Source: the human T2T-CHM13v2.0 reference genome, Homo sapiens. Taken from it: DNA of 64,000 bases. Positions 16,214 through 58,760 of the stretch are shown in pieces. The translations under genes and the position numbers were made by a program. The DNA is taken from NCBI RefSeq assembly GCF_009914755.1, contig NC_060927.1; one strand, given 5' to 3'. Positions within the stretch are counted from its first letter, which is position 1, and the number at the start of each line of letters is the position of its first letter. A model generated the notes under the pieces. The model saw only the letters and a program-made list of their open reading frames with translations. It was not told the DNA's origin and made no database searches.

Positions 16214-17468
16214 ATCATTGGTTCTGGGTCCCAAGGCAGTTCCCAGGGTCTTGTTTGTTGATTTTCAGGATGTGGCTGCATGTACTGGACATTTCTCAGC
16301 AGATCCTGCATACAGAATGATTGATTCTGGGGCTTTCTGGATGTTCTACTCTTTTTAGGTCCACTTTGGGAAAAAAAGGGAAGCTACTACTTTCACATGA
16401 AGTGAAAGTAGCCTGCATTTGCAGGGAAGCCATGTCTAGAAAAAGCATAATCAAAATGATGTCCTTGGAGGAAGCACCTGGCTGTTTACAACAAGTGAAA
16501 TCCTTGTCTTCCAATTAGAGGGGCAGCTGGAGTCTCATGTGTGCATTCAGGTTGCAAAGAGATGAGCCACTATTAGATGAGCCACCACTAACAGAACTGC
16601 TGGGATGATGTAAAGTAATAAATTACACCACTCATGTAAGTATGATAGCATCAATGTAAGCATGTAGGAAATTTTGTTTTAATTCTAGATTTAGGTATCA
16701 ACTATAAAACCCTAGAATCTATGGCAAGTAGGAAATGAGGAGAGTATATTTTATCCCACATCTCATCTTACAATGAGGTGAGGCCTGCAGAAGCAACAGT
16801 GACTAGCCAGGAGATGCTGGCGAGTCATAATGTAACTAAACAATAACATAAACGCTAGAATTCCCAACTGTTCTTTTAGTACCATAGTATTGATTTTTGT
16901 AATTCGGTGAGTTTTGACCACTTACTTAAGATTCCAGGCAGCCCTCCTGTTGTTGTTGCTGCTCTCCTTTATGCCAGCATTTGTCACACTTGCTTGATTT
17001 GATTCCCTGCCTCCTGCCTTTATTTTATTTTATTTTTTAAAGCTGAAAAAAATGAGGGTTGCTTGTATTCAGGCCACGGTTACCACCAGTTGGCTTTATT
17101 TCTTTGGTCAATATCCTCTCTTCCATGGATAGAAATATGAATAAGAATAATCCTTGTACAAAGAAAACAAAAGTGCTAGCCTACTTTGTATGGAGGCCCA
17201 TTTTCCAACAGTTTTGTTTTATCTAGTCAGTGAATTCCTCAGATGTATTACTCGAGATGCAAGGAATACATTGGGAAAAACACCCCAGAAAAGTAGTAGC
17301 TTCCCTTTTTTTCCCAAAGTGGACCTAAAAAGAGTAGAACATCCAGAAAGCCCCAGAATCAATCATTCTGTATGCTGGATCTGCTGAGAAATGTCCAGTA
17401 CATGCAGCCACATCCTGAAATCAACAAACAAGACCCTGAGAACTGCCTTGGGACCCAGAACAAATGAT
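16214..17468. repeat. Inverted repeat: arms 16214-16393 and 17290-17468, 896-bp spacer
   Basis: Manual alignment shows 3 substitutions and 1 indel over 180 bp. ORFs on opposite strands share the peptide SSSFPFFPKVDLKRVEHPESPRINHSVC. Confidence 0.97.
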
Positions 17469-25960: not shown

Positions 25961-28583
25961 TGTTGCTGCTGTATTTGAGGTTCATTTAAGCAAATGCTTA
26001 CTGAGCACTCACTGTGTGTCATCACTGAAATAGGAAATGGCAATAAAAAAATGTCCTTGTTCTTGAGGAGCCATGGAAGTGAATAAGAAGCCTCTTTTTA
26101 GAAGAAATTCAAAGGTTGCAAAACTAGAAAAGTGGGTCTTTTGCACCCTACCAGCAGGAAATGTTGTCTATAAAAGATAGTGTCCACCCATGTCAACTTT
26201 CAGTTCTGTTGTCGGCCTAAATTGGCAACTCTCTGCTTCTGCAATAGTGGCCTTGCTTTCATTTTGGAAGAAAGTTGGCTGCAGGTAGGAGTAGAAATGC
26301 CTATCTAGTAGCTTTGGTTTTTCTCCAGGACCTGACTTGATTATCTCACTGGTTGCTTTTAGGAGAAAGCACCCACTGTTGGCTTCTGTTCTGAAAGGGC
26401 ACCAGGCAAGCATGGAATCCTATCAGCAGAGCAAGCCAAGAGCTCAATAAACTGTTTATTCATTGTTCAAGCTTCTCCACCTATATGGATTATTAGAAGA
26501 AGTATTTCATCTTAGGGTACCCAGATTAGATTATAGATACTTCAAGTATTCTTTAGAATTCACTGAGGGGAAAAAAATATGGAAAGCAGCATCAGTCATT
26601 TGGGACCGTGTTGTTTCCTGATACCAAAATAACCGAAATGAAGAAACTACAATCTGTAAGTTAAAACAGCTGGTTTCCAGCCTGTTAAATAAAAACCAAA
26701 AGGTGTGACGTACATGGCAAAATGGGATAAACCTGGTTTTCTGAGTGGAGGCAGCTATTGATAATTTTACTTTTCTTATAGCTGAAGATGAAGGAGATTT
26801 GAGGTTCTCTGAGAATTAAAATTCGGCTGGAGTTAGCCTAGGGTGAGACCCTCAGAGCTGTCTGTTCATGCCATTGCCTCAAGCCTGTGGACGTTTTTTC
26901 ACCCTGGGGCAAGAAGAGGCTCCAGTTTGCCCAACTGCTGTGTGTGTTCCAGGCCAGTGTCCAGTGAGGCTGACTTGGCAGCTGCCCTTTCCACAGCCAG
27001 CCAGCCAGCCCCTGAGTGTGTTTTAAAAGATAAGCGACAAAAAGCCAACCCCTTTTAGAGGGGCTGGAACAGGCTAGTAGTTGCTAGGCAAGTTAAAGTA
27101 ATTCAGCGTCCTTGCCAAACGTCTGCCAGGCAAATAGGGAACTTTCAGAGAAGGGGAGTGAGATGGTGGTGTGTGTTGGTTGCCATAGGAATGTTTCCCT
27201 GATTGGAACAAGACCACAGAGTGGGGAGAGCAAGACGGCAGCATCTACGGTTCTTTCTGCTCAGGAATGGGAACCCAGAGTGGGCAGTAGAGCGGAGGCA
27301 AGCCATGCAGAGGCAGGAGCAGATGAGACCCTAGATGCCACGAGAAGCTAAACATGTGGGGAAAATAAAGAGCAGATTAACTCAGGAAAATTATATGGGG
27401 AGCTCTTATGCTACTCTGAAGATCTGAGACTCGTTGGAGAATTTACAATCCCAAATTAACTCAGGGAGAATTCCAACTAGACTCTGAAATGAATTAGATG
27501 GAGATTTAAAATAGGGCAATTTAGTGGGAAGAGATACTTAATTTGAAGGTAGGTATTTTGTATTTATGTAAATATTATGTCAGATTATGTCTTTATTTTA
27601 GCTCTTAAGGTAGTAATTAAATATCTGTTCATGAATTATAGTTTTTATCGAGTTCTGATTTATAGGGGGAAAAGGCACAGTTGACCAAATTGTATGAAAC
27701 CTTGGACCTTGAAGAGACCCTCTGATGTGGGCTTTACTGCCGCATTAACAAGCACCCTGTGCATCTGGTGGCAGCTTCCAGAATGACAGCTGAGGGTCTG
27801 AGTGGAAATAAGTGGCTTTTAGCAAATGTTGAACCTCGAATGTGCTATTTAACCTCCCTGATTAATTGATTATCCAGCTCCGAAAATAAGAGGTGATATA
27901 GCTATCCCCTTATCTCAGCATGGATGCTGTTCTCATTTGAATACAATTTGGGGGGTAGGTGGGGGTAGTATCAGATCCTAGGGTACATGCTATGATAATG
28001 ACAGGCTTAATTATCAGTCAGTCAATATTGTTTAGAACAAATGTTTTCTTTTAGATCACAATCTTAAGGAAACCTTTCTTTAACGGATAAAGTTTTACTT
28101 GTGCATATGAAGTGTATATATAAATTTATCATTTGCCATATATTTGATTCATGTTCAGAGGGTATTTAAAATAGTATCTTCTTCAGAATGTATATGTTGG
28201 GATTATATATTGCTGTTTCCTTCTTATGTGGTTTCTTTTTGTGGTCATGTAAAAGAAGACTAAAGGGATGTGATATTTAGTCTCAAATATTTGAATTATA
28301 GTCACTGTTTTATTTCAGGGCTGTTTCCTTCTATCAGTTCCTTTGATCTGGAACACCAATGTCATTTTTACTTTACAGTTGACCGTATGCTGGCTGACTG
28401 ACATCAATTAACTAATCTGAGGCAAATTTGTAAGCCAAATGCCAAATTGTAATTTACTGGGAGAGTATAATCTAATAAGAAAGACTATCCTTGGGCTTTT
28501 CACATGGTGAACCCTAGTGTGATTTTGACAAAGAAGCCCAAGTATATACTACTATAATCTTTTTTTTAAAAAAGTGATGTTCT

Positions 28584-31770: not shown

Positions 31771-32074
31771 ACGAAACACTAAATTAGTTCTTTGCTGGTG
31801 AAAATGCATGGTAACAAAAGAAAAAGCAGTAGCTGGGATGCAGAGTTAAATTTGCTCAAATATTTTCCATTAAAACAATAACTACCATAAACCCAGAGTA
31901 GCTGCTCTGGTTGGAGGCCAACTTTCAAGTGTTGGAGCATCACTCACGGACAGGAAGCAGAGCCTGACTTTCCTGGGAAGGCTTCTTTTAGCTGGGGCAA
32001 ACCTAGGGACTTTCATTCTCCTTTAGCCTTTCATTCAATGAAAAAGGCCAAGAATGCCAAGGAAAGGAAACTTG

Positions 32075-32262
32075 TTGATTGTCTATTATATACCAGGCAT
32101 GCTAAGTATTTTATATATAGTGGCTCATTTAATTCTGTAACCACCCTGTGAATAGATAGGTATTATTTCCATATTACAGATCAATAAAAGTTGTGTAGCT
32201 TGTCTAGGGCTACACAATAAGTGATCAGGGATTTTACTTAGCTCTAAAATCTGATTACTTTC
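32075..32262 (-). mobile_element. MIR abutting the long hairpin
   Basis: tataccaggcatgctaag...ctcatttaattctgtaaccaccctgtga...ccatattacagat. Confidence 0.7.
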
Positions 32263-32751
32263 TAAATGTATTATTTGCAAAAAAAGTCCTTTAATATTTT
32301 TGCTTTTAGTCTTCAAAAGATCGCTGATGCAGGTTAACAGCCTCTGCTTGTTAACAAAATTTACTCAATTACCGTATCCACCTTTCATTTTAGGCCGTAA
32401 TTTATGTTGGTGCTGACAGAGTGATATCAGGTGTCCTCAAATCCAGTGGAAACAAAATGAAATCACCGGGCTCTACATATTATCTGCTATTGACTATTAG
32501 TGGAAAGTAATCAGATTTTAGACAATAGCAGATAATATGTAGAGCCCGGTGATTTCATTTTGTTTCCACTGGATTTGAGGACACCTGATATCACTCTGTC
32601 AGCACCAACATAAATTACGGCCTAAAATGAAAGGTGGATACGGTAATTGAGTAAATTTTGTTAACAAGCAGAGGCTGTTAACCTGCATCAGCGATCTTTT
32701 GAAGACTAAAAGCAAAAATATTAAAGGACTTTTTTGCAAATAATACATTTA
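32263..32751. repeat. Near-perfect 230-bp inverted repeat with a 30-nt spacer (arms 32263-32492 and 32523-32751)
   Basis: Base-by-base reverse complement is identical except A7 versus T6. Confidence 0.99.
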
Positions 32752-32963
32752 CATACATATCCACTAATCGGCATTGTTGGTGAGTGGCAAAAGGTGTGTG
32801 AATCTTAAGTCAAATTTAACTTTCAGAAGTGGTGCTTGCACTTTTTGGGTAAAATACAGTGCTATCATTTTGGTTTTTAAGAAATCCTGTTGTTTGGGCT
32901 TGTGGTTCTGTCTTTTATCCTTTGGGTAGATGAAGGGATGACATTTGCATTCAGTGTCCCTCC

Positions 32964-33484
32964 TGTTCCAGTTAATTGGTGCTGCATAACAAACCACTCC
33001 AAAACTTAATGTCAGCAACAACCATGTGTATTTGACTCATGAATCTGCAATCTGGCCAGGGCTCAGCAGGGACAACTCATCTCTGCTCGCCTCAGCATCA
33101 GCTGGGTTGGCCTAGAGGCTGTGGGTTAGAATCATCTGAAGCTAGCCCACTTACATGTCTGGAGCCTAGCTGGGAAGACAGACAGCTGGGCTCCTCAGGC
33201 ATCTCTGTTTGTGGTCTCTCCAGCATGATAGCTTCAGGGTAGACAGACTTCTGTACCAGTTCACTGCTCAGCACATGACCCAAGAGAAAAAAAAGCAGGA
33301 ACCTTTCATGATCTACCTTAGGAAATCAGACAGCATCACTCCACTATGTTCTATTAAACTGAAGCAGTTACAAAGGCCACTTAGGTTCCATGGGAGTAGA
33401 AATAGATTCCATCTCTTGATAGGGAAGTGAAAAGTTTCTCACAATCTTGCAGTGGCCACTATTGGAAGATATAGACTGCTACAC
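32964..33484 (-). mobile_element. MLT1H-type MaLR solo LTR
   Basis: tgctgcataacaaaccactccaaaacttaatg...ctcatgaatctgcaatctggccagggctcagc. Confidence 0.75.
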
Positions 33485-56757: not shown

Positions 56758-57588
<831 letters not shown>

Positions 57589-58760
57589 TTATTTTAACTT
57601 TCATTTTAGGTTTGGAGGTACATGTGCAGGTTTGTTATATAAGTAAACTCATGACTAGGAGGTTCAGTATAGACACTATTTCATCACCTGGGTACTTTTT
57701 TCCTGAACCTCTCCCCACTTCCACTTTCCTCTCAAGTAGTCCCCAGTGTCTGTTGTTCCCCTCTTTGTGTCCGTGTGTTCTTATTATTTAGCTCCTATTT
57801 ATAAGTGAGAACATGTGGTATTTGGTTTTCTGATCTTGCATTCGTTTGGTAAGGATAATGGCCTCCAGTTCCATCTGTGTTCCTGGAAAAGAAGTGATCT
57901 CATTCTTTTCTATGGCTGCATAGTATTCCATGGTGTGTATATATACCACATTTCCTTTATCCAGCCTATTGTTGTTGGCTATCTAGGTTGATTCCATGTC
58001 TTTGCTATTGTGAGTAGTGCTGCAATAAACATAATGTGTGCATGTGTTTTTAAGGTAGAATGATTTATATTCTTCTGGGTATATACCCAGTAGTGGGATT
58101 GCTGGGTCGAATGGTAGTTCTGTTTTTAGTTTTTTGAGGAATTACCACATCCACAGTGGCTGAACTAATTTACACTCCCACCAGCAGAGTACAAGTGTTT
58201 CCTTTTCTTGGCAGCCTCACCAGCATCTGTTATTGTTTGAGTTTTTAATAATAGCCATTCTGACTGATATGAGATGGTATCTCATTTTGATTTTGATTTG
58301 CATTTCTCTAATGATCAGTGATATTGAGCATTTCTTCATATGCTTTTTGGCCACATGTATATCTTCTTTTGAAAAGGGCCTGTTCATATCCTTTGCCTGC
58401 TTTTCAATGGGTTTGTTTTTTGCTTGTACATTTGTTTCAGTAGATTCTGGATATTAGACCTTTGTCAGATGTATAGTTTGCAGATATTTTCTCCCGTTCT
58501 GTGGGTTGTCTGTTTATTCTGTTGATGGTTTCTTTTGCTGTGCAAAAGCTCTTCAGTTTAATTAGGTCCCATTTATCAATTTTTGCTGAAATTGCTTTTG
58601 GCATTTTTGTTATGAAATTTTTGCCAGATTCTATATCCAAAATATTATTTCCTAGGTAATCTTACAGAGTTTTTATAGCTTTAGGTTTCACATTTAGGTC
58701 TTTAATCCATCTTGAGTTTATTTTTGTATAATACGTAAGGTGAGGGTCCAGTTTCAATCT
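57589..58760 (-). mobile_element. Older L1PA13-16-class 3' portion (T-tail continues at ~56739-56756)
   Basis: Minus-strand L1 3' UTR and ORF2 C-terminus (ORF 58437-58640). Confidence 0.88.

What the first reader, a model, noticed from the sequence alone, without database searches (positions are those of the whole stretch)
32493..32768. The hairpin loop is a mosaic of inverted copies of both flanks (A-B-C'-A'-B'-C architecture)
Seen: loop bases 32503-32522 (gaaagtaatcagattttaga) are the exact reverse complement of the 20 nt just upstream of the left arm (32243-32262). Loop bases 32496-32504 (attagtgga) are the reverse complement of 32760-32768, just downstream of the right arm. The two pieces overlap by GA, and the A'/B' junction has tag(a/t)caatag near-homology. 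The order A'B' (not B'A') cannot come from a single fold-back. Inference: this is a three-step serial template-switch insertion (MMBIR/FoSTeS or Pol-theta templated insertion). The left side is probably ancestral because A is continuous with the MIR.
Basis: partly seen in the sequence, partly recalled or inferred. Interest (0 to 1): 0.72.

Follow-up and report, generated by a model that had tools for sequence, protein, structure and literature searches.

The report
Palindrome from one template switch
A 490-base near-perfect hairpin-forming repeat in an intron of human TMEM108 has an odd mosaic loop that is best explained by a single, already described kind of DNA-copying error rather than a three-step one, so it is a tidy, unusually long example of a known mutation type.

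Summary
Bases 32503-32522 are the exact reverse complement of 32243-32262 (A). Bases 32496-32504 are the reverse complement of 32760-32768. The arms B (32263-32492) and B' (32523-32751) are identical apart from an A7/T6 run.

The three-step serial template switch is not needed. Take an ancestor U-A-m-B'-C, where m is the reverse complement of 32493-32502. One switch-and-return event on it is enough: leave at the end of A, copy the opposite strand from the end of B' back to the start of A, and return at the start of B'. This reproduces 1400 of the 1401 observed bases.

That is the published '3-1-4-2' type of the four-point template-switch model: two inverted repeats around an inverted spacer (PMC5453318). 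It is also a miniature dupINVdup.

This model explains why the sources of A' and B' abut at 32262|32263. The 9-mer match to C may be chance (4-5%).

No outgroup or second human assembly was reachable, so polarity remains an inference. B is single-copy, and no print record of the locus was found.

The parts
32099..32262 (+). U-A: old MIR-type SINE remnant that runs into segment A. This is ancestral left flank in every model.
   Evidence: nhmmer with profiles built from 30 + 30 MIR copies of the same genome matched 32099-32181 (E 0.0037) and 32179-32233 (E 0.0085). A glocal alignment to the derived consensus continues weakly through A.
32243..32262 (+). A: 20 nt. It is the last stretch copied before the switch; its end is point 1 and its start is point 3.
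   Evidence: Exact reverse complement of 32503-32522 (I3).
32263..32492 (+). B: left arm, 230 nt. Inferred to be the first part of the newly made inverted copy (F2).
   Evidence: Identical to the reverse complement of 32523-32751 except for one extra A in the A-run. Single-copy in the genome apart from its partner.
32493..32502 (+). m': 10-nt inverted spacer, the only surviving copy of ancestral m.
   Evidence: Read directly. The single-event simulation needs it as ancestral spacer. The 9-mer also occurs inverted at 32760-32768.
32503..32522 (+). A': inverted copy of A and the last part of F2. Copying ends at point 3.
   Evidence: I3.
32263..32522 (+). F2 as a whole. It is 260 nt now and 259 nt as simulated: one contiguous reverse-complement copy of ancestral A-m-B'.
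   Evidence: The simulated product equals the observed 31800-33200 apart from one A.
32523..32751 (+). B': right arm, 229 nt, inferred ancestral. Its start is point 4 and its end is point 2.
32752..32768 (+). C: right flank. 32760-32768 repeats 9 nt of the ancestral A/m junction in direct orientation.

Best explanation
The locus is the product of one short-range template-switch mutation of the '3-1-4-2' type, equivalent to a miniature dupINVdup.

The inferred ancestor is U-A-m-B'-C: window ..32262, then the reverse complement of 32493-32502, then 32523 onward.

The inferred event has three steps. The growing strand left its template at the end of A (32262). It then copied the opposite strand backwards from the end of B' through m to the start of A, making B-m'-A' (now 32263-32522). 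It returned to the original template at the start of B' (32523).

The result is that A and B' are each present twice in interleaved inverted pairs. The 10-nt spacer m survives only in inverted form. A 230-bp-arm palindrome with a 30-nt loop has been created. One A was later gained or lost in a homopolymer run, or slipped during the copying.

Shown: the sequence relations, and that this one event reproduces the sequence. Inferred: the ancestor, the polarity and a replicative mechanism. The arms carry no substitution, so the event is young, or the arms are kept alike by gene conversion.
For: (1) Simulating the event on the inferred ancestor gives a 1400-nt product. It differs from the observed 1401 nt (31800-33200) only by one A at the 32279 run. 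F2 is 259 nt and the 1->4 deletion is 10 nt.

(2) The source of A' starts at 32262 and the source of B' ends at 32263. In this model they are one contiguous copy, so the abutment is automatic.

(3) No base is left unexplained and only two jumps are needed.

[quoted passage not shown] Template-switch patterns up to 318 bp are reported in human haplotype assemblies (10.1101/2021.11.26.470150, passages).

(5) B is single-copy in the genome (2 of 2 matches are the two arms), so this is a local duplication and not a transposon.

(6) A is continuous with a MIR remnant, which fits A being ancestral on the left.
Against: No ancestral allele was seen. No outgroup or second human assembly is reachable with these tools, so ancestor and polarity rest on parsimony.

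Neither junction has terminal microhomology. At 1->2 there is 0 nt. At 3->4 there is only a subterminal TAG followed by a mismatch. Microhomology is usual, though not required, for replicative switching.

The model leaves the 9-nt match between the spacer region and 32760-32768 as a coincidence at the 4-5% level, or as an unproven old target-site duplication.

The test of whether the MIR continues from A into m was inconclusive. The fraction of 4000 random continuations scoring at least as well was 0.47 for A->m, 0.24 for A->B and 0.42 for A->C.

F2 of 259 nt is far longer than most described events.
Confidence: 0.7

Rival explanations
1. The ancestor is U-A-B-C, and a serial template switch with three templated pieces (C' 9 nt, then A' 20 nt, then B' 229 nt; four jumps) is inserted between B and C by MMBIR/FoSTeS or polymerase theta.
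For: It explains the 9-nt match to 32760-32768 as templated. There is a 2-nt GA overlap at the C'/A' join and a tag(a/t)caatag near-homology at A'/B'. Chained local events exist in print (10.1101/2021.11.26.470150, passage on two adjacent events).
Against: It needs four jumps instead of two. It leaves 32493-32495 untemplated. It must treat as coincidence that the A' source starts at 32262, exactly next to where the B' source ends at 32263; I estimate that at roughly 1 in a few hundred. The 9-mer alone is within chance (4-5%). By recall, polymerase-theta templated inserts are tens of bases, not 259.
Confidence: 0.07
2. A two-event history. An earlier small event made a 20-bp hairpin A-m'-A' next to B'. 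A later switch copied B' in inverse between A and m'.
For: It gives the same final sequence. Hairpins are thought to favour template switching (PMC5453318, passages on the classic model).
Against: It needs two events where one suffices. It also needs the second event's breakpoints to fall exactly at the outer end of A and the outer end of A'. A and A' carry no difference that would mark A/A' as older than B/B'.
Confidence: 0.06
3. Re-insertion of a small DNA circle. A 250-bp circle made of A-B is cut once at 32262|32263 and ligated in inverse at a break between B and C, with 10 nt of filler.
For: A single cut of a circle also explains why the A' and B' sources abut and why exactly one full copy is present.
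Against: It needs the circle's right end to coincide with the insertion point (32492). It needs a separate origin for the 10-nt filler. No microhomology is seen at the would-be circle junction. This is my own construction with no test available here.
Confidence: 0.03
4. Not germline biology. The structure is an assembly artefact, or a change private to the CHM13 cell line.
For: Only one assembly could be examined. Long perfect palindromes are hard to clone and sequence (recalled), so their absence from older references would not be surprising either way.
Against: The structured loop, with an inverted copy of the left flank and a spacer, is what a mutational event gives. A read fold-back chimera would not give it. 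The arms also differ in a homopolymer. A cell-line-private event would still be the same mutation type.
Confidence: 0.07

Closest known systems
[quoted passage not shown]
   Same: One reverse-complement fragment overlaps both the leaving point and the return point. This gives two interleaved inverted repeats around an inverted spacer, all four points lie within a few hundred bases, and a hairpin is created.
   Different: F2 is 259 nt. The events described are mostly tens of bases; the longest reported per individual is 318 bp, or 97-180 bp outside masked sequence. The ancestral allele has not been observed here.
dupINVdup complex structural variant (Brand 2015 as cited in Collins 2017, PMC5338099; passages read)
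   Same: The topology is the same: two duplicated segments linked by an inverted single-copy segment.
   Different: The scale differs. This locus has 20 bp + 10 bp + 229 bp, against kilobases to megabases. dupINVdup variants are found by read-pair signatures, not as a palindrome.
Palindromic AT-rich repeats (PATRRs) of 11q23/22q11/17q11 (recalled, no call)
   Same: A near-perfect palindrome of several hundred bases in a human chromosome, predicted to extrude a very stable hairpin or cruciform. The DNA fold is -281.5 kcal/mol, z -59.
   Different: The arms are only about 65% A+T. There is a 30-nt asymmetric spacer. The locus is single and there is no evidence of translocation or length polymorphism.
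De novo hairpin RNA / miRNA genes from template switching (10.1101/2023.04.19.537475; search listing and start of abstract only)
   Same: A template switch creates a perfect stem-loop inside transcribed DNA. The sense RNA fold is -411.6 kcal/mol, z -55.5.
   Different: The stem of 230 bp is far longer than a miRNA precursor. No Rfam family reached its gathering score (0 of 10 listed matches). No expression data were seen.

Membership tests
Template-switch mutation, four-point model type 3-1-4-2 | The new fragment is the reverse complement of one contiguous nearby stretch of the reference or ancestor. | tested here: met
   32263-32522 equals the reverse complement of inferred A-m-B'. Of that stretch, 249-250 nt are verified against the retained flanking copies A and B'; only the 10 nt of m cannot be verified.
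Template-switch mutation, four-point model type 3-1-4-2 | [quoted passage not shown] | tested here: met
   The two interleaved inverted pairs A/A' and B/B' are present. The order follows from the simulation. That the spacer is inverted relative to the ancestor is inferred.
Template-switch mutation, four-point model type 3-1-4-2 | An ancestral or alternative allele without the event is seen in a related sequence. | not testable with these tools
   Only this genome is held (header: 'It has no relatives here'). The 20-mer scans of other collections gave 3 chance hits in large bacterial contigs and 0 viral hits.
dupINVdup | Two segments at copy number 2 flank a copy-number-1 inverted segment. | tested here: met
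   A occurs twice, B occurs twice and m occurs once. Inversion of m is inferred.
Serial MMBIR/FoSTeS insertion (reader) | Two or more separately templated pieces are needed to explain the insert. | tested here: not met
   One contiguous templated piece suffices.
Serial MMBIR/FoSTeS insertion (reader) | Microhomology is present at the joins. | tested here: inconclusive
Under the single-event parse there is 0 nt terminal microhomology at both joins.
Polymerase-theta templated insertion | Short templated inserts, tens of bases (recalled). | tested here: not met
   The insert is 259-260 nt.
Foldback transposon / MITE with long terminal inverted repeats | A multi-copy family in the genome. | tested here: not met
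   The arm sequence matches only its own two copies (2 matches). That search scores best candidates only, so very old, diverged copies could be missed.
PATRR | A very AT-rich palindrome without a spacer that mediates recurrent translocation (recalled). | tested here: inconclusive
   G+C of the arms is 0.35 and the spacer is 30 nt. Translocation is not testable.
Known hairpin RNA families (Rfam 15) | A score at or above the family gathering threshold. | tested here: not met
   The best match is 79 bits against a gathering score of 195 (plant MIR8007). All 10 listed matches are below threshold.

The most novel reading that the evidence does not exclude
The palindrome is a very young template-switch allele: human-specific, polymorphic, or even private to this genome, and near the upper length limit known for the process. 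It places a 230-bp perfect double-stranded RNA stem in the TMEM108 pre-mRNA and a cruciform-prone site in the DNA. It could therefore be an unstable, deletion-prone locus, or a newborn source of edited or small RNAs in a gene reported as a psychiatric-risk gene (PMC6330398, start of abstract in listing).
Probability: 0.12. Interest if true: 0.55.

Novelty: new member of a known kind. Interest (0 to 1): 0.35.

Why it matters
The case shows that an apparently multi-step 'mosaic' junction reduces to one event of a described type. That matters for how complex insertions are scored in assembly comparisons: a linear aligner would call this a 250-bp insertion plus a mismatch cluster. At 259 nt it would be among the longest clean 3-1-4-2 events. 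It also creates one of the rare long near-perfect palindromes in unique human sequence; only 2 inverted pairs at 96% or better were found in this 64-kb window. Such palindromes are candidates for instability and for double-stranded RNA. If it proves fixed and old, it is simply a neat textbook example.

Tried and rejected
(1) MIR continuity as a polarity test. I built profiles from 30 of 826 and 30 of 328 MIR pattern matches in the same genome. Local nhmmer hits stop at 32181 and 32233. An anchored alignment of the derived tail to the three possible continuations was no better than 4000 random continuations: 0.47, 0.24 and 0.42. The test is inconclusive.

(2) Pairwise BLAST of the flanks and B against the rest of the window found only hits with E 0.078 or worse.

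(3) Transcription-strand skew of the arms. It is +/-0.08 against a tile standard deviation of 0.17 (547 tiles), so it is uninformative.

(4) A search for stray primate or human copies in other collections with the 20-mer A. It gave 3 hits in bacterial MAG contigs of 276-1422 kb. They share only 20-23 exact bases, plus one 30-nt 90% stretch, with the locus, so they are chance. There were 0 hits in viral contigs.

(5) Literature. 'TMEM108' + 'palindrom' found 4 papers and 'TMEM108' + 'inverted' found 18 papers with 10 listed. None concerns this locus, judged from titles and abstract starts. Supplements of variant catalogues were not searched.

(6) Rfam gave only sub-threshold generic hairpin matches.

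(8) Other single-event parses. Taking a = B and c = the 9-mer fails because 8 nt (32752-32759) separate B' from the 9-mer. Simple fold-back types would give B'-A', not A'-B'.

(9) The transposon reading is rejected on copy number.

Full report
**What is there.** The window is CHM13 chr3:135842001-135906000, inside an intron of TMEM108 on the + strand (hub annotation). No annotated exon lies nearer than 27253-27548.

Reading 32100-32900 and scanning it for repeats shows a large palindrome. The left arm B is 32263-32492 and the right arm B' is 32523-32751. A global alignment of the left side with the reverse complement of the right side shows no substitution in the arms. There is one length difference, A7 against T6.

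One search reports the pairing as running to 32496/32519 at '100%'. In fact 32493 and 32522 are both 'a' (216 of 217), so the loop proper is 32493-32522, 30 nt.

As single-stranded DNA the region folds at -281.5 kcal/mol (z -59, 0 of 100 shuffles as good). As sense RNA it folds at -411.6 kcal/mol (z -55.5).

Every element is confirmed.
- 32503-32522 is the exact reverse complement of A = 32243-32262, the 20 nt just left of the left arm (I3).
- 32496-32504 is the exact reverse complement of 32760-32768.
- The two pieces share GA.
- The tag(a/t)caatag near-homology is the imperfect extension of the arms noted above.

The 20-mer is far beyond chance. The 9-mer is not. It occurs 3 times in the window against 0.76 expected, and 6 of 100 shuffles reach 3. 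Also, 484 of 8886 12-nt segments of this window (5.4%) have some 9-mer match within 300 nt on either strand; among complex segments it is 196 of 4923 (4.0%).

**What it is not.** The arm sequence matches only its own two copies in the 3.1-Gb genome, so this is a local duplication and not a foldback transposon or MITE. That search scores best candidates only, so very old copies could escape. No Rfam family reaches its gathering score: the best match is 79 bits against 195, and all 10 listed matches are generic long-hairpin hits.

Across the whole window only five inverted pairs of 40 nt or more lie within 3 kb of each other. Only two of them are 96% or better: this one and the one at 16214-17468.

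**A simpler history.** Write the present sequence as U-A-B-m'-A'-B'-C, with m' = 32493-32502. The stretch B-m'-A' (32263-32522) is one contiguous block. Its reverse complement reads A-m-B'. The block is flanked on the left by A and on the right by B'.

That is exactly the product a-c'-b'-a'-c of a single switch-and-return event on an ancestor a-b-c = A-m-B'. Replication leaves at the end of A (point 1). It copies the other strand from the end of B' (point 2) back to the start of A (point 3). It resumes at the start of B' (point 4).

I simulated this in a script. The 1400-nt product differs from the observed 1401 nt of 31800-33200 by a single A in the 32279 run. F2 is 259 nt, and 10 nt (m) are replaced.

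[quoted passage not shown] The topology is also that of the dupINVdup complex variant, two duplications joined by an inversion (PMC5338099, passages), here at 20 + 10 + 229 bp.

**Why I prefer it to the three-step model.** It must also accept as coincidence that the source of A' begins at 32262, the base next to where the source of B' ends (32263). In the single-event model these are one copy, so the abutment follows.

The price of the single-event model is that the 9-nt repeat between the A/m junction and 32760-32768 is either chance (4-5%) or an old target-site duplication that I could not show. My rough weighing, which is inference, sets about 0.045 against about 1/300 and adds the prior cost of two extra jumps. 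That favours the single event by one to two orders of magnitude.

I considered other single-event parses and they fail. With a = B the 9-mer would have to follow B' directly, but 8 nt intervene.

Two further rivals give the same sequence but need extra events or coincidences. One is a pre-existing A-m'-A' hairpin followed by copying of B'. The other is re-insertion of a 250-bp circle cut at 32262|32263.

**Polarity.** In the preferred model A and the right arm are ancestral, and the left arm plus the loop is new.

I tried to test polarity from within the sequence. U-A is indeed a MIR remnant: nhmmer matched 32099-32181 (E 0.0037) and 32179-32233 (E 0.0085) with profiles from 30 + 30 genomic copies, and the glocal alignment continues through A. 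But the short MIR tail does not discriminate between the continuations A->m, A->B and A->C (0.47, 0.24 and 0.42 of 4000 random continuations score as well). Strand-composition skew is also uninformative.

No outgroup or second human assembly is available. The genome 'has no relatives here'. The 20-mer found only 3 chance matches in large bacterial contigs and none in viral contigs. Polarity therefore rests on parsimony alone.

**Mechanism details and caveats.** Neither junction shows terminal microhomology. At 1->2 the nascent end and the template share 0 nt. At 3->4 there is a subterminal TAG followed by a mismatch. This is compatible with the four-point model, which makes no assumption about mechanism (passage). 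It is weaker support for a microhomology-primed replicative switch than one would like, and a break-and-ligate origin of the same topology cannot be excluded.

The length of 259 nt is unusual. The longest template-switch pattern per individual in human haplotype assemblies was 318 bp, and 97-180 bp outside masked sequence (10.1101/2021.11.26.470150, passages).

**Age.** There are zero substitutions in 229 aligned arm positions. With a recalled rate of about 0.5e-9 per site per year per copy, that puts a 95% upper bound near 13 million years if there is no arm-to-arm conversion. The allele could be private, polymorphic, human-specific or shared among apes.

**Known or new.** Two literature searches on the gene name with 'palindrom' and 'inverted' found nothing on this locus, judged from listings. 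Variant-catalogue supplements were not searched. The kind of event is known, so this is a new and unusually long member of it.

**Consequence.** Any consequence is untested. A 230-bp perfect stem in the pre-mRNA and a cruciform-prone site in DNA are predicted from the folds only.

Noticed in passing
window 16214-16393 and 17290-17468: A second young, single-copy inverted duplication lies in the same intron. The arms are about 180 nt with 3 mismatches and 1 indel, and about 896 nt separate them. Right at the inner end of the left arm there is an 8-nt mini-hairpin, 16387-16394 against 16404-16411, which may be another template-switch footprint.
   Followed up: partly
window 57216-57418 and 57738-57940: A 203-nt inverted pair at 77% complementarity, 319 nt apart. 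It overlaps stretches that the hub lists as masked repeats, so it is probably two old interspersed repeats in opposite orientation.
   Followed up: no
window 32149-32171 and 32735-32757: A 23-nt inverted match at 74% between the MIR body and the outer end of the right arm (I4). I take it as chance.
   Followed up: no
L064 (cyanobacterial MAG contig), locus positions 794-820: A bacterial contig shares 23 exact bases with 32243-32265 and a 30-nt 90% stretch with the loop. About one random 20-mer hit is expected in a collection of this size by my estimate, so I treat it as chance.
   Followed up: partly
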